From Escherichia phage vB_EcoM-12474III, in the sequence record NC_049457.1: a stretch of DNA of 33,807 bases; one strand, given 5' to 3'. The notes below the pieces were generated by a model. It saw only the letters and a program-made list of their open reading frames with translations. It made no database searches and was not told where the DNA came from. The position numbers were made by a program, and so were the translations under genes. This document shows, in pieces, positions 1,655 through 29,062 of this stretch (within the stretch, counting starts at the first letter, position 1; each line of letters starts with the position of its first letter).

Positions 1655-1827
1655 TGTCAGGAGTCCTGAATAGTGATTAGAGGAGTCACATGTCGGCATC
1701 AGTTTCCCGACGATGCGCATCCTCCGCCATCAGTCCCGGATGGCTTATCACTGACACAACAGCACCTTAGCGAATCGCGGGACGCGACTCAGTAGCCTTG
1801 CCGTGTATTCATCACGGCGAGGTATTC

Positions 1828-3600
1828 ATGACCATCACCACAGACACCACTCTTTTACACGACCCGCGTCGTCAGGCGGCGCTGCTGTACTGGCAGGGGT
1901 TTTCCGTGCCGCAGATTGCCGCCATGTTGCAGATGAAACGCCCGACGGTGCAGAGCTGGAAACAGCGCGACGGCTGGGACAGCGTTGCCCCCATCAGCCG
2001 TGTCGAAATGAGTCTGGAAGCGCGGCTGACCCAGCTCATCATCAAACCGCAGAAAACCGGCGGTGACTTCAAGGAAATTGACCTGCTGGGACGCCAGATT
2101 GAACGACTGGCACGGGTAAACCGTTACAGTCAGACCGGCAACGAGGCAGACCTTAATCCGAACGTCGCTAACCGCAACAAAGGCGGGCGGCGCAAACCGA
2201 AAAAGAATTTTTTCAGTGACGAGGCCATCGAAAAGCTGGAGCAGATTTTCTTTGAGCAGTCTTTCGAATATCAGCTGCACTGGTATCGCGCCGGGCTTGA
2301 GCACCGCATCCGCGATATCCTGAAATCCCGCCAGATTGGCGCGACGTTTTATTTTTCCCGCGAGGCGCTGCTGCGCGCCCTGAAAACCGGCCATAACCAG
2401 ATTTTTCTGTCGGCCAGTAAAACGCAGGCGTATGTGTTCCGCGAATACATCATCGCCTTTGCCCGTCTGGTTGACGTTGACCTGACCGGTGACCCGATTG
2501 TCCTGGGCAATAACGGTGCAAAACTGATTTTTCTCGGCACCAACTCCAACACCGCACAGAGCCATAACGGCGACCTGTACGTCGATGAGATTTTCTGGAT
2601 CCCGAATTTTCAGGTACTGCGTAAGGTAGCATCAGGTATGGCCTCACAGAGTCACCTGCGTTCGACCTATTTCTCCACCCCGTCCACGCTGGCGCACGAC
2701 GCCTACCCGTTCTGGTCGGGTGAACTGTATAACCGGGGACGCGCCAGCGCCGCCGAACGCGTGGAAATCGACGTCAGTCATAACGCCCTTGCCGGTGGGC
2801 TTCTCTGTGCGGACGGCCAGTGGCGACAGATTGTCACCATTGAGGACGCCCTGAAAGGTGGCTGCACGCTGTTCGACATTGAGCAGCTCAAACGCGAAAA
2901 CAGCGCCGACGATTTTAAAAACCTGTTCATGTGTGAATTTGTTGACGACAAGGCGTCGGTGTTCCCGTTCGAGGAGCTGCAACGCTGCATGGTCGACACG
3001 CTGGAAGAATGGGAAGACTATGCACCCTTTGCCGCCAATCCGTTCGGCTCCCGCCCGGTATGGATTGGTTACGACCCGTCACACCGTGGCGACAGCGCCG
3101 GATGCGTGGTGCTGGCACCGCCGGTGGTGGCCGGTGGCAAATTCAGAATACTTGAGCGTCACCAGTGGAAAGGCATGGACTTTGCCACCCAGGCTGAATC
3201 CATCCGCAAACTCACCGAAAAATATAACGTCGAATACATCGGTATTGATGCCACCGGCCTCGGTGTCGGCGTGTTCCAGCTCGTGCGCTCGTTCTATCCC
3301 GCCGCGCGCGACATCCGCTACACGCCGGAAATGAAAACCGCAATGGTGCTCAAGGCAAAAGACGTTATCCGCCGTGGCTGTCTGGAATATGACGTCAGCG
3401 CCACCGACATCACCAGCTCGTTTATGGCTATCCGCAAGACCATGACCAGCAGCGGACGCAGCGCCACCTATGAGGCCAGCCGCAGCGAGGAAGCCAGCCA
3501 CGCCGACCTCGCCTGGGCGACCATGCACGCCCTGTTAAATGAGCCACTCACCGCCGGTATCAGCACCCCGCTGACATCCACCATTCTGGAGTTTTACTGA
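1828..3600 (+). CDS. P: Terminase ATPase (large) subunit gpP
   Basis: MTITTDTTLLHDPRRQAALLYWQGFSVPQIAAM... (590 aa from the ATG at 1828) matches P2 gpP; divergent from O as in P2. Confidence 0.92.
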   Translation: MTITTDTTLLHDPRRQAALLYWQGFSVPQIAAMLQMKRPTVQSWKQRDGWDSVAPISRVEMSLEARLTQLIIKPQKTGGDFKEIDLLGRQIERLARVNRYSQTGNEADLNPNVANRNKGGRRKPKKNFFSDEAIEKLEQIFFEQSFEYQLHWYRAGLEHRIRDILKSRQIGATFYFSREALLRALKTGHNQIFLSASKTQAYVFREYIIAFARLVDVDLTGDPIVLGNNGAKLIFLGTNSNTAQSHNGDLYVDEIFWIPNFQVLRKVASGMASQSHLRSTYFSTPSTLAHDAYPFWSGELYNRGRASAAERVEIDVSHNALAGGLLCADGQWRQIVTIEDALKGGCTLFDIEQLKRENSADDFKNLFMCEFVDDKASVFPFEELQRCMVDTLEEWEDYAPFAANPFGSRPVWIGYDPSHRGDSAGCVVLAPPVVAGGKFRILERHQWKGMDFATQAESIRKLTEKYNVEYIGIDATGLGVGVFQLVRSFYPAARDIRYTPEMKTAMVLKAKDVIRRGCLEYDVSATDITSSFMAIRKTMTSSGRSATYEASRSEEASHADLAWATMHALLNEPLTAGISTPLTSTILEFY

Positions 3601-4634
3601 TGAGCAAGAAAAAAGGGAAAACACCGCAACCTGCGGCAAAAAAAATGACCGCCAGCGCCCCGAAAATGGAGGCATTCACCTTTGGTGAGCCGGTGCCGGT
3701 ACTCGACCGCCGTGACATTCTGGATTACGTCGAGTGCATCAGTAACGGCAGATGGTATGAGCCGCCGGTCAGCTTTACCGGTCTGGCAAAAAGCCTGCGT
3801 GCTGCCGTACATCACAGCTCACCGATTTACGTCAAACGTAATATTCTGGCCTCGACATTTATCCCGCATCCGTGGCTTTCCCAGCAGGATTTCAGCCGCT
3901 TTGTGCTGGATTTTCTGGTGTTCGGTAATGCGTTTCTGGAAAAGCGTTACAGCACTACCGGTAAGGTCATCAGACTGGAAACCTCACCGGCGAAATATAC
4001 CCGTCGTGGCGTGGAAGAGGATGTTTACTGGTGGGTGCCGTCCTTCAACGAGCCGACAGCCTTCGCGCCCGGCTCCGTGTTTCATCTGCTGGAGCCGGAT
4101 ATTAATCAGGAGCTGTACGGCCTGCCGGAATATCTCAGCGCCCTTAACTCTGCCTGGCTGAATGAGTCGGCCACGCTGTTCCGCCGCAAGTATTACGAAA
4201 ACGGCGCTCATGCCGGATATATCATGTACGTCACTGATGCCGTGCAGGATCGCAACGATATCGAAATGCTCCGCGAAAACATGGTGAAGTCGAAAGGCCG
4301 CAACAACTTTAAAAATCTGTTTCTCTATGCCCCACAGGGGAAAGCCGACGGCATCAAAATTATCCCGCTCAGTGAAGTGGCAACGAAGGACGATTTTTTT
4401 AATATCAAAAAAGCCAGCGCCGCTGACCTGCTGGACGCGCACCGCATCCCCTTTCAGTTGATGGGCGGCAAGCCGGAGAACGTCGGGTCACTGGGCGATA
4501 TTGAGAAAGTGGCAAAGGTCTTTGTCCGCAATGAGCTTATCCCGTTACAGGATAGGATCCGCGAGATAAACGGCTGGCTCGGTCAGGAGGTCATCCGCTT
4601 TAAAAACTACTCACTGGACACTGACAACGGCTGA
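3600..4634 (+). CDS. Q: Portal protein gpQ
   Basis: 344-aa ORF MSKKKGKTPQPAAKKMTASAPKMEAFTFGEP...; same length as P2 gpQ; its start overlaps the P stop (TGATG). Confidence 0.92.
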   Translation: MSKKKGKTPQPAAKKMTASAPKMEAFTFGEPVPVLDRRDILDYVECISNGRWYEPPVSFTGLAKSLRAAVHHSSPIYVKRNILASTFIPHPWLSQQDFSRFVLDFLVFGNAFLEKRYSTTGKVIRLETSPAKYTRRGVEEDVYWWVPSFNEPTAFAPGSVFHLLEPDINQELYGLPEYLSALNSAWLNESATLFRRKYYENGAHAGYIMYVTDAVQDRNDIEMLRENMVKSKGRNNFKNLFLYAPQGKADGIKIIPLSEVATKDDFFNIKKASAADLLDAHRIPFQLMGGKPENVGSLGDIEKVAKVFVRNELIPLQDRIREINGWLGQEVIRFKNYSLDTDNG

Positions 4635-4803: not shown

Positions 4804-4822
4804 GTGCTTTCCCGCCTCGCCC
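4804..4822. other. cos: cos cohesive-end site (19 nt)
   Basis: Minus strand reads GGGCGAGGCGGGAAAGCAC, near-identical to the P2 cohesive end as I recall it (GGCGAGGCGGGGAAAGCAC); it lies about 170 bp beyond the Q stop, as in P2. Confidence 0.7.
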
Positions 4823-5008
4823 GCCCGCTTCATGGGTCGGTTTTAATGCAGTTGCATAACATATTATTCATAGCACCACTGTGAGTTTATGGCTTCATTT
4901 TAGCGAGTTACTTACGCATGCATTTTAATGCACATAATTGCAGTTCTAGCCTACGTTTAACTCCAGTGTTAATCTTTGCATATCACCATATCTAATGAGA
5001 TTAGAGTT

Positions 5009-6127
5009 ATGACAGAAAGCCTTGATTACATCGACCTCAATAAACTTGAGCTTGATACAAAAAATCCACGTCTTCCTGAAGGTGTTGAACGTACCCCAGA
5101 AGCAATGCTAAATCATATAGCTCTAACAACCTCTATTGAAGACTTGATGAATGCAATCGCAGAAAATGGATTTTTTCCTGGCGAGCCTCTTATTGCGGTT
5201 AAAGAGGGAGATAAGTACACCGTTGTGGAAGGCAACCGTCGCTTAACGGCAGTTAAACTTATTCATAACCCATATGAGTGCGACAGACCCAGCTCCCGGA
5301 TGATAGAAATCGCCGAAAGCGCTAAAGATAAACTAGGTACACTAGAAAAATTACCAGTGATCGTTAGAGATACCAGAGCTGAAATTTTACCTTATTTGGG
5401 TTTCAGACATATCACTGGTGTCAAACAATGGGAACCTCTATCGAAGGCTCGTTATATCGAGCAACTTTTTGGGCTCACCTCCCCAAACTCACCGACTAAT
5501 GATCGATATCATCAGGTTGCTCGTGCAATTGGTAGCAGAAAAGATCATATCAAGAGAAATCTAGATGCTTTAGCCGTTTATAAAGTAATGGAGAGCAATA
5601 ACTTTTATGATATTGATGGATTAGATGAAGAATCGATCAAGTTTTCAATTTTATCTACAGCCTTAGCTGACGAGAAAATTGGATTGTTTGTTGGCGTCTC
5701 AGAAAAAGACGAATATGGTGATATTACATCCAATGATGTAATAATTCACCCACATCATATAAATAGAGAAAATACCAGAGAACTTACACTATGGCTTTAT
5801 AAAAAGGATGATTCCGGGAAAACAAAGGTTGGAGAGTCCCGAAATTTACGCCTATTATCTTCTGTTATTGATAACCCCAAGGCTTTAACGTCCTTTAGAA
5901 ACGGGGCTGACCTTAAGGTTGCGTATCAGTTAACTGAAGACTTAAAACAAGATTTCATGACGTTACTTTATAAAGCTGAATCTGCATTAATTGAAGCGGC
6001 TGGAATTGTTGCAACCATTGATTACAATCCTGAAGCATTGGAAGTTGCAAGACGCCTAAGTCAAAATGTCAAACTTATTGGTAATACAATTAAAGCCAAA
6101 AAGGTTTCTGACGATGAAGATTTTTAA
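5009..6127 (+). CDS. ParB/Srx-fold (ParB N-terminal nuclease-like) domain protein, cargo gene
   Basis: N-terminus carries ParB-type motifs DTKNPR (aa 16-21) and VVEGNRRLTAV (aa 72-82, the GxRR box); ATG at 5009 follows a GAG-rich RBS; AT-rich relative to the core; overlaps the start of the next gene. Confidence 0.6.
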   Translation: MTESLDYIDLNKLELDTKNPRLPEGVERTPEAMLNHIALTTSIEDLMNAIAENGFFPGEPLIAVKEGDKYTVVEGNRRLTAVKLIHNPYECDRPSSRMIEIAESAKDKLGTLEKLPVIVRDTRAEILPYLGFRHITGVKQWEPLSKARYIEQLFGLTSPNSPTNDRYHQVARAIGSRKDHIKRNLDALAVYKVMESNNFYDIDGLDEESIKFSILSTALADEKIGLFVGVSEKDEYGDITSNDVIIHPHHINRENTRELTLWLYKKDDSGKTKVGESRNLRLLSSVIDNPKALTSFRNGADLKVAYQLTEDLKQDFMTLLYKAESALIEAAGIVATIDYNPEALEVARRLSQNVKLIGNTIKAKKVSDDEDF

Positions 6128-7106
6128 AATCGGAGACATTCATCCTAGTGTTCCTCATCTTTTTGCAGACCTTGCAGAACTTGCTACGGTTATAAATTAT
6201 TCTGGTCGTTATGATCTACATAAAAATGACCTCATAACAATAAGAACTCAAAGTAACACAAGTGTGGATGATATTGATCAAGAATATCAAGAAGATGAAA
6301 ATGAAGGCTGCGATGCTGAACGCAATGACCGTTTAGAAAGACAAGTTGAAGATGTCTGGACGCAACTCGATTTTAGACAAAATTTTCTCAAGGATATTTA
6401 TCCATTTATTATTAATGGTGACTTTATTTCATTGAAAGAAAACCTCACTGAGATACAAAGAATATATATTTTCTTACTCGCATGCTCGAGGTTACGTTCT
6501 TTCACAAAGGCTAGGCAAGGAATAATACAGTTTTGGGCAAAAAATTTTGCTGTCGTAAGTAAATTTTGTGCAACAGCACTACTCCCAGCACACTCAACTG
6601 TACGAGTATTTGACGCAAACTCAGATGACAGGCGAAAATATTATGGTACTGATTTAAGAAAAGCCTTGAAAAGGCTAGGAAAAGACTTAGCTGTTCCTTA
6701 TATTAATGAGCAAGAGTGCGAAAGAGCTGATCCGAGAGGTGATGGTGGTTTTGATATAGTTGCAACTATAGAATTTGAAGATAAATTAAGTAGTAACTTT
6801 GCCTTTTTAGGTCAATGTGGAGCCCAAGAAAGAGATTGGCCCAAAAAAACACTTGAAGCCCACTCATTGAAACTACGAACATATTTTCAAGTGCATTTTG
6901 ACATACCAACTCTAATGTTTACCCCCGTATTCTATCGAAACTCAGATGGTCAATGGGTAGACAATAGCCCTTGCGCTGGAGTATTGATCATTGACAGAGC
7001 AAGGATATTACAGCTTTTAAAAAAGACAAACCATTGCCCTAAAATAGTTTCAGAACAATGGTTTCTTGATTTCGAACAAATTATCAATGATCTTAAGGTC
7101 GAATAA
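6114..7106 (+). CDS. Hypothetical protein with a possible PD-(D/E)xK nuclease motif; operon partner of the ParB-fold gene
   Basis: ATG at 6114 overlaps the upstream gene end (6127); protein contains RGDGGFDIVATIEFEDK (aa 208-224), reminiscent of the Mrr-type GDGGxD ... ExK catalytic signature; AT-rich. Confidence 0.5.
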   Translation: MKIFKIGDIHPSVPHLFADLAELATVINYSGRYDLHKNDLITIRTQSNTSVDDIDQEYQEDENEGCDAERNDRLERQVEDVWTQLDFRQNFLKDIYPFIINGDFISLKENLTEIQRIYIFLLACSRLRSFTKARQGIIQFWAKNFAVVSKFCATALLPAHSTVRVFDANSDDRRKYYGTDLRKALKRLGKDLAVPYINEQECERADPRGDGGFDIVATIEFEDKLSSNFAFLGQCGAQERDWPKKTLEAHSLKLRTYFQVHFDIPTLMFTPVFYRNSDGQWVDNSPCAGVLIIDRARILQLLKKTNHCPKIVSEQWFLDFEQIINDLKVE

Positions 7107-8045
7107 CTAATCCCAAATATCTGGAAGAGATTTAGCAACCGCCTCAAATAAAGGAGGCGGAACAGCATTGCCAACTACTGTATACTTCATATTAATAGAA
7201 GCCCGTTCAGTTTCTGGAAAAATTAGGTCTCCAAAACCCTGTAAAATAGCGGCCTCTCGATAACTAAACCTACGAGCTGGTGCATCCGAAGTAAATTGCC
7301 ACTTATCTGGACCCAATTTTTCTAATGTTGGACTTATTGGATGTAGAGGCATATGTCTAGGATTTGCAACAATTGTTTTAGATATCTGATCCCAATCTTG
7401 CCGACGGTTGCGCGATAGATAATACCAATGAAAATCGGCATCATAAAACTCACCAATAGGCCAAACAGGCATATGACCAATAGCATCACGAATTGTTGAA
7501 TATGGTTTCAAGCCATCACCATGTGTTGGTTTTGGAAATTTGTATGTAATACCATAGTCTTTTCGTATTCCTACGATAAAGATTCTCTTCCTATCTTGTG
7601 ATACGCCATAGTGGGACGCATTCAGAATTTGCGAGCTTACTGTATAACCTGCTTCTTCGAAAACTTTGAATTGATCCTTTAACAAATGTTCAAAGTTACG
7701 CCTTACCATTCCAGAAACATTCTCTACAATGAATGCTTTTGGCTTAATCTTTCTCAAAGCACGAGCAAACTCTAAATATAGAGTATTAATCTTTCTATCT
7801 GCCTTCCTTGCTCCACCCTGGCTAAATCCCTGGCAAGGATAGCATCCGATAAGCAATTCGGCAGAAGGGAACGATTGGAGTCCTGAAATATCGCCCAATA
7901 TGTAATCAGTTTCAGGATGGTTTTCTAAGTAAACGTCCCTTGCATAAGGCAAAATATCGTTTGCCATCAGCACATTGAACCCTGCTCTCAAAACTCCCGC
8001 ATCAGAACCACCACATCCAGAAAAAAGTGAAACTACAGTTGGCAT
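7107..8045 (-). CDS. DNA (cytosine-5)-methyltransferase
   Basis: Canonical C5-MTase motifs: FSGCGG (motif I, aa 8-13), PCQGFS (motif IV, aa 70-75), ENV (motif VI, aa 108-110), a QDRKR motif (VIII-like) and a C-terminal GNAVPPPL; convergent with, and abutting, the 6114..7106 gene. Confidence 0.88.
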   Translation of the reverse strand: MPTVVSLFSGCGGSDAGVLRAGFNVLMANDILPYARDVYLENHPETDYILGDISGLQSFPSAELLIGCYPCQGFSQGGARKADRKINTLYLEFARALRKIKPKAFIVENVSGMVRRNFEHLLKDQFKVFEEAGYTVSSQILNASHYGVSQDRKRIFIVGIRKDYGITYKFPKPTHGDGLKPYSTIRDAIGHMPVWPIGEFYDADFHWYYLSRNRRQDWDQISKTIVANPRHMPLHPISPTLEKLGPDKWQFTSDAPARRFSYREAAILQGFGDLIFPETERASINMKYTVVGNAVPPPLFEAVAKSLPDIWD

Positions 8046-8257
8046 CGCCCCTCCTAAAAACCGACCGCGTATTATAGCGAAACCACCCCTTGGGAAAAGC
8101 TAGATTTCGCCAAGTTTTGATATTCTCATGTTTTAGTAGTTGTGGCCATCTTTAACGAGAGAAAGATGAAATTGAGTTCTCATTAATTTTCAATAGGTTT
8201 AATTGTAAACACAGCAGGAATCAAAGCTAACACGTCGCTACGCTCATTGTTCAACCC

Positions 8258-8290
8258 CGCCATCTCTGAAAACAAGTTTCAGAAATGGCG
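8258..8290. promoter_or_regulatory. Imperfect palindrome upstream of the methyltransferase gene
   Basis: cgccatctctgaaa-acaag-tttcagaaatggcg, 13/14 complementary arms; sits in an AT-rich spacer about 210 bp upstream of the MTase start. Confidence 0.35.
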
Positions 8291-8296
8291 AGTATA

Positions 8297-8542
8297 CTAC
8301 ATCCTATGCGGTAGTTTCTTAGGCATGTTTGCTGGTCGAAATACCTCAATTTTCTGTCTACTGATATCGTTAAACCGTCTGTAATTATCCCGGACCATTT
8401 CGGCACACCCGACCAGCTCATCAGGCGTCAGATTTTCGTTGACCATAATCTGCTGTAGACGGTGGACAATGGCCATCAGCTTGATATTTTTAGTTTTATG
8501 CTGCGGTATCTCGCCTGGTATTCTGTGCATTATCCAAGCCAC
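8297..8542 (-). CDS. Small hypothetical protein (81 aa; start uncertain, possibly 8476)
   Basis: ORF only; occupies the position of the small post-A ORFs in P2-like phages. Confidence 0.4.
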   Translation of the reverse strand: MAWIMHRIPGEIPQHKTKNIKLMAIVHRLQQIMVNENLTPDELVGCAEMVRDNYRRFNDISRQKIEVFRPANMPKKLPHRM

Positions 8543-8982
8543 CCGTTTTGCTGTGCACGCTCCATCTGTTCATCTGAATAGTTCCATGCTCCATCCGTGG
8601 CAACCATTGCCCCGCCAGACACCCCCGTCTCTGGTTCATACATAACAGCAAGGCCGAGCTGATGCATAATTTCATGATTAATTCTGAATACCAGGCCACG
8701 CTCACTAAGTTCTTTCCAGTTCACAATCTCATATGCGCTTGTATTAAGCAGCTCAATACTTAGCAAGACATAATCTTCCAGCCAGTCTGACAGGTCAGTA
8801 ACATCTGTTATCCGGGCTTCAACCTTTCGCCCCGTAAACACACCCTGTACCCATTCATGCAAAATCAGCGTATCCCCGCGCTCATAATTACGGTCATTTT
8901 TCCGAAACTCTGCACGTTTCTTTCCTTCCAGCACAAGGTCGAAATATTTTGCGTGCAGCTTTACCTCGTGAATTTTTGCCAT
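8530..8982 (-). CDS. ASCH/DUF3850-like protein with a C-terminal HExxH motif
   Basis: MAKIHEVKLHAKYFDLVLEGKKRAEFRKNDRNYERGDTLILHEW... resembles PUA-like ASCH/DUF3850 domains; C-terminal part contains HEIMH followed by YEPE; ATG at 8982 overlaps the end of A. Confidence 0.6.
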   Translation of the reverse strand: MAKIHEVKLHAKYFDLVLEGKKRAEFRKNDRNYERGDTLILHEWVQGVFTGRKVEARITDVTDLSDWLEDYVLLSIELLNTSAYEIVNWKELSERGLVFRINHEIMHQLGLAVMYEPETGVSGGAMVATDGAWNYSDEQMERAQQNGWLG

Positions 8983-11267
8983 GATGTCCACTCCATTACT
9001 GTTGAGAATCCCGGCCACACATCAGCGACCAGATACGTGAATTTTTTTCCGTCATAATTTACGGTTGCTCCACGCGCCAGCGCCTCAAGTTCCCATCGCT
9101 GAGGCCAGATGCCGTTCTGAGCAAGGTCAACACGGATACGGGTAATTTGCATACGCTCCGACCGGGTCAGCCTGGCCGATGGCGCTATTTCATTCGGTTT
9201 TAACGGGCTTCCGTTTCTTTGCTGACGGTTTGGTGTTCTCAGGCCGTGTTTTAATGCGCCCCTGAGCGCCCTCACGACCTCCGGGTCATTCCATTCGATA
9301 ACACCGTCATCAACCAGATTAAGCACGGCTGCGGCGCGCTCAGAAGGTGTGGGAGCCGGTAACGAAGTATCACCACCGGTGAGCTTTCCACAGTTATTGA
9401 CAGGACTCCGAGGCGCGGCGATGCCGCTTTTTAAAGTCAAAGGCTCAACGACCGGCACTTTCGGAACAATGCGCCAGTCCGTCGTTCTGGTGATATGAAT
9501 ATGACGCGCGCCGAGATGCGGCGCGTAAATGCCGACCACTCTCTCGACTTCTTCCTCGTACTCGTTAACTTCATCCGACGGACTACGGGCGACCCTGACA
9601 GTCTGACAATCGCGCGGGACATTTGCCCCACCCTGCGCGCTGATATACAGCGCAAAATCACCACTGTCTGCGGCGGCGCGTGCAGCCTCGACGCGCTCGT
9701 CAAACTCATCAGCAATGCTGACGCCGCGAGGCAATTTGCGTAGTTCACGGTAAGCCCCCATTGTCGGCAGGCCAACCGTTTTAAATTGCGGAATGCGCCA
9801 CGTTGACGCCCATGCGGTAACAGCCGCGGCAGTATCTTTCAGCGGTCTGCCGGTATCGTTATCGAGCTGCCCATCCAGTGCATAGCCGTCGATATTTTTT
9901 GAGATGTATTTCGCGATATACCCCGCAGCACCGCCCCGATTAAGATGTTTTGCCTGAAAACGGTTTCGCGCGGCTCCTCTTTCGTCGCCATCCTCTTTGA
10001 GCGCATAGCGACGCATGATTTCAATAATCTGGTTACGCTGGCGTGGATTACAAAAAAGCATCATATGCCAGTGCGGCGTTCCGTCGTGGTGTGGCTCAAC
10101 GACACGCAAACCGTAGGCCTGTAAATCATTATCCTTGAATGCCGTGCGCATCAGGCTCCAGATACGGCAGAGATAACGCTGCGCATCCTTTGGATTAAAT
10201 GCCTCATGGTTCCAGCCGTGATTAAGCTGGACGGTTTTACTTTCGCCTTTTCCGACCTGACGTGTCGGGTGATACTTTGACGGCGCGGTCAGCGTGATAA
10301 ACATCCCCACATCACCCTCTGCGGCGGCGTAACGCTCAATACCGGCAATGGTGTTCATCAGCTCCATCCGGCGAATTTCAGGATTAGAAATACTGCCCAT
10401 CACCTTACTGATAAGGTCGATGCGTTCGCCGGTTTCCCTGTTTTCAAGGTCACACGATTTAAGAAATTCCAGATTTGCCTGGCGGCGTGCACGTACATCA
10501 CGAATGGCATGTTTACTGGCATAAGGAGAACGGTCTTTATTCACCGCCCCGACAGCAATCAGTAACGCCTCATGCCAGCGCATACGCTGGCCTTTAAGCT
10601 GATGAGCCCACCACTCATCGTTAAACAGACGGGCAATGGCAGAATATGCCTGCCTCGTGGTCATCTGCCCTTTACGGTATTTTTTCCAGTAGAGAGGGGA
10701 AATATTGAAAGCTCGTGCAGCGCCAGCAACATGACCATACAGGTGAGCCTGCGCCTCATCCGTAAACAGCGATTCTTTCTCGCCATGCGCATCCACCCAG
10801 GCATCGCTGAGTTCCTCATACATCATGAAAAGCTGCGATGAGATACGGGCGGCAAATTTTTTCAGCTCCTTGTCATTCATTCCCGGCAGGCGCGCATAGT
10901 GGTCACGCTCTGCCAGAAACAGTAACGACGCGTCGGTGTTCATTTCATGGCGCTGATTCACACGCTCAATGCGCGGCCATAAACGACGCTGAAAAGTGGA
11001 TGTGAGAAAATAAAACCCGTGCACCGGGCTTTTATTGCGCCGGATGTAGTCATAGCGTGAAGTAAACAGCGAGCGCAAAAAGTAAGGCAGGCGGTTAATC
11101 GTGGATAAAACACCTTGCACCTGACGCATCTCGTCACGTGTAAGGGGTCTTTCGCGCCCGACAGCCTCGCGTGGCGCGTTCCATGCATAAGCACCGGTAA
11201 ACGCCTTACCGGTGCCTGCGGCAAATGCTGACGGAGGGACAAAACGCCCGGAGGCTTTAACGGCCAT
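8961..11267 (-). CDS. A: Rolling-circle replication initiator endonuclease gpA
   Basis: Long ORF; from MAVKASGRFVPPSAFAAGTGK... it matches P2 gpA as I recall it (about 761 aa); start chosen at that Met. Confidence 0.9.
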   Translation of the reverse strand: MAVKASGRFVPPSAFAAGTGKAFTGAYAWNAPREAVGRERPLTRDEMRQVQGVLSTINRLPYFLRSLFTSRYDYIRRNKSPVHGFYFLTSTFQRRLWPRIERVNQRHEMNTDASLLFLAERDHYARLPGMNDKELKKFAARISSQLFMMYEELSDAWVDAHGEKESLFTDEAQAHLYGHVAGAARAFNISPLYWKKYRKGQMTTRQAYSAIARLFNDEWWAHQLKGQRMRWHEALLIAVGAVNKDRSPYASKHAIRDVRARRQANLEFLKSCDLENRETGERIDLISKVMGSISNPEIRRMELMNTIAGIERYAAAEGDVGMFITLTAPSKYHPTRQVGKGESKTVQLNHGWNHEAFNPKDAQRYLCRIWSLMRTAFKDNDLQAYGLRVVEPHHDGTPHWHMMLFCNPRQRNQIIEIMRRYALKEDGDERGAARNRFQAKHLNRGGAAGYIAKYISKNIDGYALDGQLDNDTGRPLKDTAAAVTAWASTWRIPQFKTVGLPTMGAYRELRKLPRGVSIADEFDERVEAARAAADSGDFALYISAQGGANVPRDCQTVRVARSPSDEVNEYEEEVERVVGIYAPHLGARHIHITRTTDWRIVPKVPVVEPLTLKSGIAAPRSPVNNCGKLTGGDTSLPAPTPSERAAAVLNLVDDGVIEWNDPEVVRALRGALKHGLRTPNRQQRNGSPLKPNEIAPSARLTRSERMQITRIRVDLAQNGIWPQRWELEALARGATVNYDGKKFTYLVADVWPGFSTVMEWTSWQKFTR

Positions 11268-21973: not shown

Positions 21974-23056
21974 TTGAAACCAGAGCAAATGAAAAACAGG
22001 GAAGAATTAACTAGCTTTGCAACGAAACTTGCTACTCAAATCAAGATGCAAACCAGCAGCAATTTAAATGATCTTTCTACAGCCCAAGAGAGCTCGCTAT
22101 TGCCTCTAATCAATCATGCCTGGGGAGAGCAGTTTGAGGATATGAATAGGATATCCCAAAACTACCCTGGTCTCGACTATGTGCAACCGGGAAAGCGCTT
22201 AGGTTTGCAAATGACTGCCACTGCAAGAAAGGTTAAGTATCAGAAAACATTAGACAAACTTCGAAATAATGAGAAGTTAAAGGGTAAGTTTGACGAGATT
22301 TGGTTTTTCGTCCTCACGGCTGAACGCCTACCTGATAACGTACGTGAACACCCTGACGATTTTCAGTGCAAATATTTCACATTGTACGACCTAGTCGAAA
22401 AGGTAATGGGACAGACTTTAGAATTTCAGCGTGATTTTTTGACCCTTGCCCGGAAAGAATACTCGGATTATTTCTCTCCTGGGGACGTTGCTTTCAATCA
22501 GGGGTATTGTGTATCAGAAAACAAGCCGATCCCCTTTGACTTGAGTCTTTTCAACGCGTTAATTCATACTAATGAATGGTTTGATGATGTTGACGAAGGT
22601 GAGCAGATCGTATATGAATTTCTAGAACTTTTTAAAAATAGACTGCGTCAATGCACTTTATCTGCTAGAAATCTTTTAAGCAAAATTATCAGTGAGATAA
22701 ATATACCGAAGAGTACAAGCACGAAAATCGAGTTTCCTGAAAAGCAACTTTTCGGGCCACTAATGATTGACGATACAAACTATCAATCTTTTTCAAAAGA
22801 CCTTGATGATTTGTTCGAGATGAGTCTTATTGAACGATGGGACAATTATGTTGGAATGTACTATAAGGGTGATGATGCATATATCAAAAATGAACGTATG
22901 ATCAGCGTGTCATTTCCAAAGATTGAACCCGAAATGAATCTGTATGCGGCGTTATATATCTTTTATGAAAAAAATCATGATATTGCAAAACTTGTGAACG
23001 CAATTGAAAATAGTGATTTTTCTCTGCTCGCTGACAGCACTTGCCAAAATAATTAG
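21974..23056 (+). CDS. Hypothetical 360-aa protein, AT-rich cargo between FI and G (start TTG at 21974 with GGAG 8 nt upstream; alternative ATG at 21989)
   Basis: Long ORF on the strand opposite to all flanking late genes; visibly AT-rich codon usage; no transmembrane segments; no family recognised. Confidence 0.7.
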   Translation: MKPEQMKNREELTSFATKLATQIKMQTSSNLNDLSTAQESSLLPLINHAWGEQFEDMNRISQNYPGLDYVQPGKRLGLQMTATARKVKYQKTLDKLRNNEKLKGKFDEIWFFVLTAERLPDNVREHPDDFQCKYFTLYDLVEKVMGQTLEFQRDFLTLARKEYSDYFSPGDVAFNQGYCVSENKPIPFDLSLFNALIHTNEWFDDVDEGEQIVYEFLELFKNRLRQCTLSARNLLSKIISEINIPKSTSTKIEFPEKQLFGPLMIDDTNYQSFSKDLDDLFEMSLIERWDNYVGMYYKGDDAYIKNERMISVSFPKIEPEMNLYAALYIFYEKNHDIAKLVNAIENSDFSLLADSTCQNN

Positions 23057-28276: not shown

Positions 28277-29062
28277 ATGGTCAGCTATAATGTGACTAAT
28301 GTGTGGGGGCTAATCGTTTTTTTCCTTTGTAGCTTTGCAGTATTAGCATTTTTTAGCTTTGGTAAAAGTAACCTTATGAGGCTTATTGCACATTATTTCA
28401 ATTTTGGATATTCAGACAAAAAATTAAAAAGACTTGACCGCGAGTGGCGCGACATTCAACTATTTAAAATAATTAACGGAATCAATGTATCAGGCATTGA
28501 AAATGTGAGAATGATACAGCAGGGACTGATTGATGGAAAACTAAAAACATCGTATTTTTTCCTTACTCGCATCTGGGGTGACATAACAAAACCACCACAC
28601 ATAATTAAAACAATAATTGTAATTCTGGCCAGTATTTTTTACATTCTCCTCGCATGTTATATACACAACAAACAATCCGCTATAGTAAGAGATGCCATAG
28701 GCATACCATATAAAAATATGATGTACTATGTTTATAGTGACAAAGTTCTTTTATCCTTCAACAATAAAACAGTTGAATTCAATAAAACTTATAGCCTTGC
28801 CGATTGCAAGAGGCTACGAAACGTATTTATAAAAGACACACTTCCTGAGATCGCCTGCAATAAGCTCTTACAGCTAAACGAGGAGGACTCCGAATGGTTA
28901 AGTCAGGAGATTAAAGATAATAACAGCCAAAAAAAAGCATTATTAATAATATCCCTCATCTATTTCATTTCAGGTCTGGTTATATTCCTGTCATATACAA
29001 AATTCCTTTACGCCAATAAGAAGGTTGTAGAATACAAAGCATCAAATAAAAATCACTCATAA
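28277..29062 (+). CDS. Predicted membrane protein (261 aa), AT-rich cargo between V and S
   Basis: ATG at 28277 with an AGGAG RBS 6 nt upstream; three hydrophobic helix-like segments (aa about 10-30, 115-135, 225-245); strongly AT-rich; strand opposite to the flanking late genes. Confidence 0.75.
   Translation: MVSYNVTNVWGLIVFFLCSFAVLAFFSFGKSNLMRLIAHYFNFGYSDKKLKRLDREWRDIQLFKIINGINVSGIENVRMIQQGLIDGKLKTSYFFLTRIWGDITKPPHIIKTIIVILASIFYILLACYIHNKQSAIVRDAIGIPYKNMMYYVYSDKVLLSFNNKTVEFNKTYSLADCKRLRNVFIKDTLPEIACNKLLQLNEEDSEWLSQEIKDNNSQKKALLIISLIYFISGLVIFLSYTKFLYANKKVVEYKASNKNHS

What the first reader, a model, noticed from the sequence alone, without database searches (positions are those of the whole stretch)
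6114..7106. Operon partner carries a possible PD-(D/E)xK motif (GDGGFD-x7-EDK)
Residues 208-224 (RGDGGFDIVATIEFEDK) resemble the Mrr-type restriction-endonuclease signature, a Gly-rich loop followed by an acidic residue and an acid-x-Lys triad. If genuine, this protein would be the effector nuclease of the island. A nearby GQCG segment, where Mrr has a QxK-like element, makes the assignment uncertain.
Basis: inference. Interest (0 to 1): 0.6.

Follow-up and report, generated by a model that had tools for sequence, protein, structure and literature searches.

The report
Restriction-type nuclease in prophage defence cassette

Summary

The proposed triad is wrong. D214 and Q234 correspond to MspJI D334 and Q355. 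E222 and K224 lie in a hairpin and are not conserved (30 and 20 of 259 homologues). "D213" is actually F213. The canonical lysine position is Gly/Ala across the family; K245 is nearly invariant nearby.

Context points to an uncharacterised restriction-modification-like cassette in the P2 cargo hotspot. A ParB/KorB-like partner is always directly upstream and overlapping. An M.HaeIII-like C5 methylase is adjacent in about two thirds of loci, sometimes with Vsr or an HhH-GPD glycosylase. Phage Wphi carries the same methylase (98% identical) with a 25%-identical version of this protein.

No Pfam, PADLOC or NCBIfam model covers the family. Nuclease activity, methylation-sensitive cutting and defence are inferred, not shown.

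The parts
6114..7106 (+). Target gene: 330-aa protein with an N-terminal helix plus winged-helix-like region and a C-terminal Mrr/MspJI-type PD-(D/E)xK-fold domain. RefSeq calls it 'hypothetical protein' WP_000688782.1.
   Evidence: ORF and annotation. (AF2 model, pLDDT 84, pTM 0.87). (fold and profile matches to MspJI, NgoMIV, AspBHI). The start at 6114 rather than 6066 is supported by homologue N-termini and an AAGG about 10 nt upstream.
6114..6443 (+). N-terminal region (residues 1 to about 110). It holds a helix at 14-26 with invariant D19 and E22, a winged-helix-like module, and a variable acidic insert at about residues 50-70.
6450..7028 (+). Restriction-endonuclease-like core (residues about 113-305). 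Elements: helix 137-156, strand 161-165, helical insertion 171-204, strand 215-219, strand 229-235, strand 266-269, strand 290-293, helix 295-303.
   Evidence: model. (structural neighbours are restriction endonucleases). (collinear hhalign alignment to the Mrr catalytic domain).
6738..6755 (+). G209-D210-G-G212-F-D214 loop. D214 is at the start of strand beta2 and corresponds to the catalytic Asp of MspJI (D334) and to Mrr D203.
   Evidence: HMM alignment to MspJI 298-359. (D210 in 257 of 259, D214 in 259 of 259). (Mrr GDGGID).
6777..6785 (+). It lies in the beta2-beta3 hairpin and is not the catalytic triad. Only D223 is conserved, and it may correspond to Mrr D209 / MspJI D340.
   Evidence: Glu at 222 in 30 of 259, D223 in 247 of 259, Lys at 224 in 20 of 259. 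(between strands 215-219 and 229-235)..
6813..6830 (+). Q234-C235-G236-A-Q238-E239 at the end of strand beta3. Q234 matches the Q of the Mrr/MspJI QxK motif and G236 occupies the Lys position. E239 is an acidic residue specific to this subfamily.
   Evidence: LGQCAC aligned to MspJI LGQAKC. (Q234 in 259 of 259; position 236 is G 134, A 107, K 5). (E239 present where the alpha1 Glu146 is absent).
6846..6848 (+). K245 in the W242-P-x-K245 element. It is a near-invariant lysine 11 residues after Q234 and a candidate relocated catalytic Lys. It lies in a low-confidence loop of the model.
   Evidence: K245 in 254 of 259, W242 in 259 of 259. (residues 238-250 have pLDDT below 50). The catalytic role is inference only.
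5009..6127 (+). Operon partner: 372-aa ParB/KorB-like protein with a ParB-N NTP-binding fold (invariant E74-G-N-R77-R78), an HTH DNA-binding domain and a C-terminal helical domain. An alternative TTG start lies at 4976. It overlaps the target gene by 14 nt.
7107..8045 (-). Convergent C5 DNA cytosine methyltransferase (312 aa), related to M.HaeIII over its full length. Presumed protective modification enzyme.
   Evidence: PF00145, 3.7e-62. (M.HaeIII 1dct, E 1.3e-49, residues 4-307 vs 3-320). (orthologous MTase adjacent in most loci). (98% identical to Wphi Mth).
4860..7107 (.). Exchangeable two-gene module within the P2 cargo hotspot. DNA homology to phage Wphi is absent here. It resumes exactly at 7108 (the end of the methylase gene) and continues at 93.7% identity into gene A.
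   Evidence: blastn breakpoints 4822-4859 and 7108-11070. (island GC 35-42% vs 54-59% in the backbone). (36 E. coli genomes carry this module; 140 carry the methylase).
7028..7064 (-). 17-pair inverted repeat followed by a T-run on the minus strand, inside the 3' end of the target ORF. It could terminate the convergent methylase transcript.
   Evidence: pattern scan only; function not shown.

Best explanation
The gene encodes the nuclease-type subunit of a three-gene, restriction-modification-like cassette. The cassette is carried as cargo in the portal-proximal hotspot of a P2-like prophage of E. coli O145:H28. Shown: the protein has an N-terminal winged-helix-like region and a C-terminal domain of the Mrr/MspJI branch of the PD-(D/E)xK fold. 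Its conserved signature is GD-x-G-x-D214 ... Q234-C-[G/A] ... Inferred: D214 and Q234 coordinate the catalytic metal as in MspJI and Mrr. The canonical Lys is missing, and K245 possibly supplies it from the following loop. In this subfamily the Glu of helix alpha1 (E146 in distant relatives) has been replaced functionally by E239. Shown: the translationally coupled upstream protein has a ParB/KorB-like NTP-binding fold with an HTH domain. Inferred: it binds DNA and gates or targets the nuclease subunit. Inferred: the convergent M.HaeIII-like C5 methylase marks host and prophage DNA so that only unmethylated incoming DNA is cut. No activity was measured for any of the three proteins.

For: Selection on the site: D210, D214, Q234, W242, K245, D294, R295 and R297 are kept in at least 254 of 259 homologues, down to about 22% identity. 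Acidic residues at 146 and 239 are nearly mutually exclusive: 85 vs 138, both 15, neither 21. This is what relocation of an active-site residue would produce.

Partner: the ParB-like gene is directly upstream and overlapping in all loci examined, from E. coli, Pseudomonas, Burkholderia, methanotrophs and Acidobacteriota. It has a ParB/KorB fold with the GxxRR box conserved.

Methylase linkage: an orthologous C5 MTase is adjacent in about 14 of 21 closer loci and 4 of 6 distant ones. The orientation varies (convergent, upstream co-directional, downstream co-directional). Once it comes with Vsr (L032) and once with an HhH-GPD glycosylase (L035); both are known companions of m5C methylases.

Phage Wphi has the same arrangement. 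Its methylase is 98% identical, but its nuclease-type and ParB-like proteins are only 25% and 32% identical, with the breakpoint exactly at the methylase stop codon.

Location: this is the P2 hotspot next to the portal gene, known to hold anti-phage systems (PMC9122126, PMC9519451). The island has low GC. The ParB-like N-domain belongs to the subfamily of the validated system PD-lambda-5, described as 'ParB/HEPN, methyltransferase'.
Against: The canonical catalytic Lys is absent in the whole family. In the target the alpha1 Glu is absent as well. The loop carrying E239 and K245 is the least confident part of the model, and coordinates could not be inspected.

Sequence-level links to Mrr and MspJI are weak: E 0.025 and hhalign probability 8-25%. 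The Pfam Mrr_cat model does not hit any of 43 members.

Seven of about 21 closer loci have an intact pair with all signature residues but no adjacent C5 methylase. One distant pair sits in a dnd/GmrSD island instead. A classical restriction enzyme without its methylase should be lethal unless the methylase lies elsewhere.

No experiment on this family was found in the searchable literature.
Confidence: 0.55

Rival explanations
1. The protein keeps the restriction-endonuclease fold but is catalytically dead. It would serve as a DNA-binding or scaffolding subunit, for example reading the methylation state through its winged helix. The damage would be done by the ParB-like partner (some ParB/Srx-fold proteins have nuclease or NTPase activity) or by a host factor.
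For: The Lys of the D...QxK motif is Gly or Ala in 241 of 259 members. The target also lacks the alpha1 Glu. In the related validated system PD-lambda-5 the ParB-like domain is fused to a HEPN domain, so that system does not use a PD-(D/E)xK effector.
Confidence: 0.15
2. The pair is a modification-dependent (Type IV-like) restriction system in the manner of Mrr, MspJI or GmrSD. It would attack modified phage DNA. The neighbouring methylase would be an independent cargo gene, for example protecting the phage genome from other restriction systems.
For: The closest structural and sequence relatives (MspJI, AspBHI, Mrr) are all modification-dependent enzymes. The winged-helix plus Mrr-type catalytic domain layout resembles E. 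coli Mrr. A ParB-like NTPase paired with a nuclease recalls GmrSD (general knowledge). About one third of loci lack an adjacent methylase, and one pair lies in a dnd/GmrSD island.
Against: The C5 methylase lineage stays adjacent across very distant hosts and in three different gene orders. It is better conserved than the pair itself: 430-650 bits where the target homologue scores 170-390 bits. In Wphi compared with this window, the pair was exchanged precisely up to the methylase stop codon while the methylase was kept. An m5C-dependent nuclease next to an active m5C methylase would be self-destructive. No SRA-like or other known modified-base reader domain was detected.
Confidence: 0.15
3. 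The module is not a defence system. It would be a ParB/KorB-type regulatory or maintenance module of the mobile element, with this protein as an accessory DNA-processing factor.
For: The partner's nearest structural neighbours are KorB, Spo0J and plasmid ParB proteins. The module sits on prophages and integrase-flanked islands.
Against: No ParA gene or parS-like repeat context was seen. The module occupies the dispensable P2 cargo hotspot and is absent from most P2-like phages: 36 of 5426 E. coli genomes carry it. It is linked to a methylase, Vsr and an HhH-GPD glycosylase. Orphan copies lie between housekeeping genes in chromosomes.
Confidence: 0.05

Closest known systems
MspJI / AspBHI family and E. 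coli Mrr (Type IV modification-dependent restriction enzymes with an Mrr-type PD-(D/E)xK catalytic domain)
   Same: Same catalytic-domain fold. MspJI is the best structural and best profile match. The GDGGxD loop is shared, with the catalytic Asp at the start of beta2. A hydrophobic beta3 ends in G-Q. A later (V/I)-D-x-x-R-(I/L) strand-helix element is also shared. Like Mrr, a winged-helix-type region precedes the catalytic domain.
   Different: The Lys of QxK is Gly or Ala. There is an insertion of about 45 residues between beta1 and the GDGG loop. The beta2-beta3 hairpin is longer (19 vs 15-20 residues). No SRA or Mrr_N reader domain was detected. Pfam Mrr_cat does not score. The protein is encoded with an obligatory ParB-like partner and usually a C5 methylase, which Type IV enzymes do not have.
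PD-lambda-5 (Vassallo et al. 2022, PMC9519451): a validated two-gene prophage system, 'ParB/HEPN + methyltransferase', described as a compacted RM+Abi system
   Same: The ParB-like partner's N-terminal 160 residues match PD-Lambda-5_A models at up to 8e-23, far better than generic ParB_N. Both systems combine this ParB-like domain with a DNA methyltransferase. PD-lambda-5 is described as a prophage system.
   Different: Only the ParB-N part matches. No HEPN motif is present here. The effector-type domain is instead a separate 330-aa PD-(D/E)xK-fold protein, which has no PADLOC match at all. The cassette has three genes rather than two. Whether the methylases are of the same class was not established.
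Classical Type II restriction-modification systems with an M.HaeIII-like C5 methylase (often with Vsr or a Mig-type glycosylase)
   Same: Tail-to-tail or co-directional linkage of an M.HaeIII-like methylase with a PD-(D/E)xK-fold protein. Vsr or an HhH-GPD glycosylase occasionally accompanies them. They are carried on mobile elements.
   Different: The restriction component is two different proteins, one of which is a ParB/KorB-like NTP-binding-fold DNA binder. The nuclease active site lacks the canonical Lys. About a third of pairs occur without an adjacent methylase.
Phage Wphi gp98-gp96-Mth (AY135739), an annotated but uncharacterised homologous cassette in a classical P2-related phage
   Same: Same position between cos/portal and gene A, and the same three-gene layout. 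The methylase is 98% identical. gp98 is the ParB-like homologue and gp96 the homologue of the target.
   Different: gp96 is only 25% identical and gp98 32% identical. gp96 keeps the alpha1 'FE' Glu and lacks E239. [quoted passage not shown] That paper could not be read, so any link between that phenotype and these genes is only a lead.
GmrSD / DUF262-DUF1524 enzymes (ParB-like NTPase domain coupled to a nuclease)
   Same: The concept of a ParB/Srx-fold NTP-binding module coupled to a DNA nuclease in phage defence (general knowledge; cited as related in PMC12704722).
   Different: GmrSD is a single polypeptide with a His-Me (DUF1524) nuclease and targets modified DNA. Here there are two polypeptides, a PD-(D/E)xK fold and an associated methylase. 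No sequence match was found.

Membership tests
PD-(D/E)xK phosphodiesterase (restriction-endonuclease-like) superfamily | alpha-beta-beta-beta-alpha-beta core fold | tested here: met
PD-(D/E)xK phosphodiesterase (restriction-endonuclease-like) superfamily | Catalytic Asp at the N-terminus of strand beta2 | tested here: met
   D214 is conserved in 259 of 259 homologues. It immediately precedes strand 215-219 and aligns with MspJI D334.
PD-(D/E)xK phosphodiesterase (restriction-endonuclease-like) superfamily | (D/E/Q)-x-K in strand beta3 | tested here: not met
   Q234 is invariant and aligns with MspJI Q355. The Lys position (236) is Gly in 134, Ala in 107 and Lys in only 5 of 259. K245 is a possible relocated Lys; this is inference. 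Variants without this Lys are known in the superfamily (e.g. BamHI, BglII; general knowledge). The fold assignment therefore stands, but the canonical motif is not present.
PD-(D/E)xK phosphodiesterase (restriction-endonuclease-like) superfamily | Acidic residue contributed by helix alpha1 | tested here: inconclusive
   Distant relatives have F145-E146 (97 of 110). The target subfamily has Thr or Ala at 146 and instead an invariant E239.
Mrr_cat (Pfam PF04471) / MspJI-type catalytic domain | Significant match to the family profile | tested here: inconclusive
   There is no Pfam hit for the target or for any of 43 diverse relatives. hhalign against an E. coli Mrr alignment gives probability 8-25% and P 1e-3 to 1e-4, collinear over 96-136 columns. 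The family HMM against PDB has MspJI as top hit at E 0.025. The Mrr alignment available was narrow (58% identity or more to Mrr).
Restriction-modification system (Type II-like) | Cognate methyltransferase genetically linked to the restriction gene(s) | tested here: met
   An orthologous C5 MTase is adjacent in about 14 of 21 closer loci and 4 of 6 distant loci, in three gene orders. It is not universal: 7 closer loci have an intact pair without one.
Restriction-modification system (Type II-like) | Endonuclease cleaves DNA lacking the methylase's mark, and methylation protects | not testable with these tools
   This requires in vivo plating or transformation assays and in vitro cleavage assays.
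PD-lambda-5 | Protein A = ParB-like N-domain fused to HEPN; protein B = methyltransferase | tested here: not met
Type IV modification-dependent restriction (Mrr/MspJI/GmrSD) | Modified-base reader domain (SRA, Mrr_N, etc.) and no cognate methylase | tested here: not met
   No reader-domain family was detected. The N-terminal region resembles generic winged helices only. A C5 methylase is linked in most loci. Substrate preference itself is not testable here.
ParB/Srx-fold NTP-binding proteins (the partner, not the target) | ParB-N fold with the GxxR(R) phosphate-binding box, plus an HTH DNA-binding domain | tested here: met

The most novel reading that the evidence does not exclude
The cassette represents a new class of restriction enzyme. 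A ParB/KorB-like, NTP-gated DNA clamp would load on or scan DNA and license a lysine-less Mrr-type nuclease subunit. An M.HaeIII-like m5C methylase lineage would provide self-protection. The ParB-like module would be a general adaptor that can be wired to different effectors: HEPN in PD-lambda-5 and PD-(D/E)xK here. The fast-evolving ParB/nuclease pair can be swapped against a constant methylase, as seen between this prophage and Wphi. This would imply that recognition is not a classical co-evolved sequence match between the restriction and modification components.
Probability: 0.3. Interest if true: 0.8.

Novelty: new variant of a known kind. Interest (0 to 1): 0.58.

Why it matters
If the reading is right, a large family now labelled 'hypothetical protein' is the cutting subunit of a widespread restriction-modification-like system that current defence-finding tools miss. 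The family comprises at least 1130 clusters at 50% identity across Proteobacteria and beyond. It has no Pfam, NCBIfam or PADLOC model. Its obligate partner has the ParB/KorB NTP-switch fold, whose roles outside chromosome segregation are only beginning to be mapped (PMC12704722). A nuclease controlled by such a switch would be a new way to couple DNA scanning to cleavage. The family also offers a natural example of active-site rewiring in the PD-(D/E)xK fold, with the Lys lost and the acidic residue relocated. For E. coli O145:H28 and other hosts of P2-like prophages, it would explain part of their phage and plasmid exclusion.

Tried and rejected
1. Direct family assignment failed. Pfam, NCBIfam and PADLOC gave nothing meaningful for the target. 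PHROGs gave only 'unknown function' families. Searches of PDB sequences with the single sequence and the close-family profile gave only spurious coiled-coil or low-complexity hits.

3. An alternative register puts Q238-E-R240 at Mrr's Q-A-K with W242 on Mrr's W, as suggested by hhalign. I rejected it because Q238 and position 240 are not conserved outside the close subfamily, whereas Q234 is invariant.

4. hhalign against Mrr stayed at low probability with every setting. I treat it as supportive of collinearity only.

5. The AFDB Foldseek library was unavailable. Model coordinates cannot be read, so distances between D214, Q234, E239, K245 and D19/E22 could not be measured.

6. The search for related loci with the wide alignment failed because no conserved stretch was available. 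The close alignment was used instead.

7. Literature searches found no description of this family or of PDC-M38. The 1967 paper on lambda restriction in E. coli W could not be obtained.

8. The promoter scan gave no more sites than shuffled sequence.

9. I considered a HEPN domain in the partner's C-terminus, as in PD-lambda-5. No conserved Rx4-6H motif and no HEPN structural neighbour were found.
Full report
1. WHAT IS AT THE COORDINATES

Window 6114-7106 (+) is an uninterrupted ORF of 330 codons. The string RGDGGFDIVATIEFEDK occupies residues 208-224 as reported. The window is a P2-like prophage. It is 100% identical over 4900-8100 to E. coli O145:H28 chromosomes, where the ORF is annotated 'hypothetical protein' WP_000688782.1.

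The gene order is terminase (1798-3600), portal (3600-4634), a cos-containing spacer, and then three cargo genes:
- a ParB-like gene (5009-6127, +);
- the target (6114-7106, +), overlapping the ParB-like gene by 14 nt;
- a convergent C5 cytosine methyltransferase (7107-8045, -).

After these come a DUF3850/ASCH gene and replication gene A. The three cargo genes have 35-42% GC against 54-59% in the phage backbone. This position is the portal-proximal cargo hotspot of P2-like phages, which is known to carry anti-phage systems (PMC9122126; PMC9519451).

2. IS THE MOTIF REAL?

The target has 277 close database homologues, all unnamed. A profile search of 1.84 billion representative proteins finds 1130 clusters at E up to 1e-3, nearly all 310-365 aa and matched end to end. 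No Pfam, NCBIfam or PADLOC model covers the target or any of 43 diverse members. PHROGs lists the family as 'unknown function'.

The second half is not. Position 222 is Glu in 30 (Asp 87, Gly 46). Position 224 is Lys in 20 (Gly 121). Only D223 is kept (247).

Q234 is kept in 259 of 259 and C235 in 252. It is followed by W242 (259) and K245 (254). Further on come D294, R295 and R297 (258-259).

3. FOLD

An AlphaFold2 model built on 34 homologues is confident (mean pLDDT 84, pTM 0.87). The exception is residues 238-250. The model shows:
- an N-terminal helix (14-26, carrying invariant D19 and E22);
- a winged-helix-like region with a long helix and a variable acidic insert;
- an alpha/beta core: helix 137-156, strand 161-165, a helical insertion, strand 215-219 (immediately after D214), strand 229-235 (ending in Q234-C235), strand 266-269, strand 290-293 and helix 295-303.

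Independently, an HMM of the wide family searched against all PDB sequences has MspJI as its best hit. The E-value is borderline (0.025). The alignment falls exactly on the catalytic segment: family 'sgDgGlDlVaw...vvlgQCac' against MspJI 'SSGDGGVDFIGR...VVVLGQAKCI'. Counting from the reported start (298) places the aligned MspJI residues at D334, Q355 and K357. This is the D-X20-QxK motif that, from my knowledge of the MspJI literature (Cohen-Karni 2011; Horton 2012), is the catalytic motif. So D214 corresponds to D334, Q234 to Q355, and G236 to K357.

Profile-profile comparison with an alignment of E. coli Mrr relatives gives only 8-25% probability (P 1e-3 to 1e-4). The alignment is nevertheless collinear over 96-136 columns: GDGGFD/GDGGID, the hydrophobic strand ending in Q, MFTP/FITT, and LIIDRARIL/VLVDGERL.

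My conclusion is that the restriction-endonuclease fold of the Mrr/MspJI branch is well supported by concordance of weak-to-moderate evidence. Membership of Pfam Mrr_cat as defined is not demonstrated.

4. THE ACTIVE SITE IS NON-CANONICAL

E222-D223-K224 lies in the hairpin between beta2 and beta3. Conserved D223 has counterparts at a similar place in Mrr (D209, invariant in the Mrr alignment) and MspJI (D340).

The Lys of QxK is absent from the family. Position 236 is Gly 134, Ala 107, Thr 10 and Lys 5.

A second departure is specific to the target's subfamily. Distant relatives carry 'F145-E146' in the helix before beta1 (E in 97 of 110). This resembles the 'FE' that opens the Mrr catalytic domain. 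The target subfamily has Thr or Ala there (target A146) and has instead gained an invariant Q238-E239 just after beta3. Across 259 sequences, an acidic residue occurs at 146 only in 85, at 239 only in 138, at both in 15 and at neither in 21 (Fisher P 4e-32). That P value is not corrected for phylogeny, and the pattern is essentially a clade split.

I read this as relocation of an active-site carboxylate, as is documented for other PD-(D/E)xK enzymes such as Cfr10I and NgoMIV (general knowledge). Together with the invariance of D214 and Q234 and the near-invariant K245, it argues that the site is functional rather than decayed. This remains inference. The E239/K245 loop is the least confident part of the model, and I could not inspect coordinates.

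5. CONTEXT: A CONSERVED THREE-GENE CASSETTE

In 29 further loci the ParB-like gene is directly upstream and overlapping whenever the sequence is present. The hosts are Pseudomonas, Burkholderia, Edwardsiella, Halomonas, Acinetobacter, methanotrophs, Nitrosomonadales, Acidobacteriota, metagenomes, and phages Wphi and HQ103.

An orthologous C5 methylase is adjacent in about 14 of 21 closer loci and in 4 of 6 distant ones. Three gene orders occur: convergent downstream; upstream in the same direction (L029, L030); and downstream in the same direction (L032, L034, L035). In L032 it is followed by Vsr. In L035 it is preceded by an HhH-GPD glycosylase. Both are repair enzymes that classically accompany m5C methylases; the Dcm-Vsr and M.MthTI-Mig pairings are from general knowledge.

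The methylase aligns over its full length, target-recognition region included, with M.HaeIII (E 1.3e-49). A GGCC-type specificity is therefore possible but unproven. The methylase is the best conserved of the three proteins across loci, and the target the least.

Evidence pointing the other way must also be noted. Seven closer loci have an intact pair with every signature residue but no adjacent C5 methylase. One distant pair lies inside a dnd/GmrSD island.

6. MODULE EXCHANGE AGAINST A CONSTANT METHYLASE

Phage Wphi carries gp98-gp96-Mth at the same place. Mth is 98% identical to the window's methylase. gp96 is only 25% identical to the target, and gp98 only 32% identical to the ParB-like protein.

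DNA similarity between the two phages begins exactly at window 7108, the end of the methylase gene. It runs at 93.7% through gene A. To the left there is none until the cos end. Among 5426 complete E. coli genomes, 140 carry this methylase: 36 at 99% identity or more and 104 at about 93%. Only the 36 carry the window's version of the target.

Two very different versions of the pair therefore operate next to what is effectively the same methylase. This ties the pair functionally to that methylase lineage. It also suggests either a family-wide conserved specificity or a recognition mode that does not need fine co-evolution.

[quoted passage not shown] I could not read it, so it is a lead and not evidence.

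7. MECHANISM PROPOSED

Best-supported reading, with confidence about 0.55 for the whole chain:
- The methylase marks resident DNA.
- The ParB/KorB-like protein binds DNA through its HTH and uses its NTP-binding N-domain as a switch or clamp.
- The target, bound to it, cuts unmethylated DNA with a D214/Q234/E239(/K245) site. The two genes are translationally coupled and always co-occur.

Shown here: the fold, the conservation pattern, the gene linkage and the hotspot location. Inferred: catalysis, complex formation, NTP dependence, methylation sensitivity and anti-phage effect.

Rivals are a catalytically dead DNA-binding subunit (0.15), a modification-dependent Type IV-like pair with an unrelated methylase (0.15) and a non-defence ParB-type module (0.05). 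The evidence for and against each is given in the structured fields.

8. COMPARISON WITH KNOWN SYSTEMS AND NOVELTY

The protein works most like an Mrr/MspJI-type nuclease domain. It fails the canonical QxK test and the Pfam profile test, so I do not file it as Mrr_cat.

The cassette is closest to two things:
- a Type II restriction-modification system with an M.HaeIII-like methylase;
- PD-lambda-5, listed by its discoverers as 'ParB/HEPN, methyltransferase' and called a compacted RM+Abi system. It shares the ParB-like subfamily and the methylase association, but not the HEPN effector.

I found no publication or database model describing this family (see Tried and rejected). I cannot exclude an entry in REBASE or in newer defence databases. 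I therefore rate it a new variant of a known kind: a restriction-modification-like system with a ParB-like subunit and a lysine-less Mrr-type nuclease. Interest is 0.58.

Noticed in passing
window 21974-23056 (+): A 360-aa ORF sits between the tail sheath gene and the tail-fibre genes. It has a SMEK_N domain (Pfam 1.6e-19), and its N-terminus matches the PADLOC model Aga_REase-PNTD1-PNTD2 (4e-18). It looks like a second defence-type cargo gene in the other variable locus of P2-like phages.
   Followed up: partly
window 28277-29062 (+): A 261-aa ORF is inserted among baseplate and tail genes on the opposite strand. Its sequence looks hydrophobic and possibly membrane-spanning. It has no Pfam or PADLOC match. 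It may be another cargo gene.
   Followed up: partly
window 8530-9018 (-): A DUF3850/ASCH plus DUF7415 protein lies next to replication gene A. [quoted passage not shown] Here it is a separate gene about 2.4 kb from the ParB-like gene.
   Followed up: no
window 7108-11070 vs phage Wphi (L037 2329-6262): The methylase belongs to the conserved backbone shared with Wphi (93.7% nucleotide identity, 98% protein identity). The ParB-like/nuclease pair to its left is completely replaced, and the breakpoint is exactly at the methylase stop codon. 140 of 5426 complete E. coli genomes have the methylase, and only 36 have this version of the pair.
   Followed up: yes
window 6549-6551 (A146) and 6828-6830 (E239): Family-wide, an acidic residue occurs either in helix alpha1 (position 146, distant relatives) or just after strand beta3 (position 239, the target's subfamily), and rarely in both or neither: 85, 138, 15 and 21 sequences. 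This looks like relocation of an active-site residue. It was not corrected for phylogeny.
   Followed up: partly
L036 (GCA_040777565.1 contig JBEVUX010482207.1), 4933-6963: A distant copy of the pair, with the ParB-like gene split into two ORFs, lies inside a DNA phosphorothioation (dndA/C/D/E) and GmrSD island. It has no C5 methylase. It is followed by a 373-aa protein matching PADLOC PDC-S54. The pair may combine with other modification systems.
   Followed up: no
window 7028-7064 (- strand): A 17-pair inverted repeat with a T-run lies inside the 3' end of the target ORF. It is oriented as a terminator for the convergent methylase transcript.
   Followed up: no
L027 5995-6855 and L028 5995-6585: Some chromosomal copies in methanotroph and Sideroxydans MAGs are shortened (286 and 196 aa) and lack an adjacent methylase. 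This may be decay of orphaned pairs, or it may reflect contig ends.
   Followed up: no
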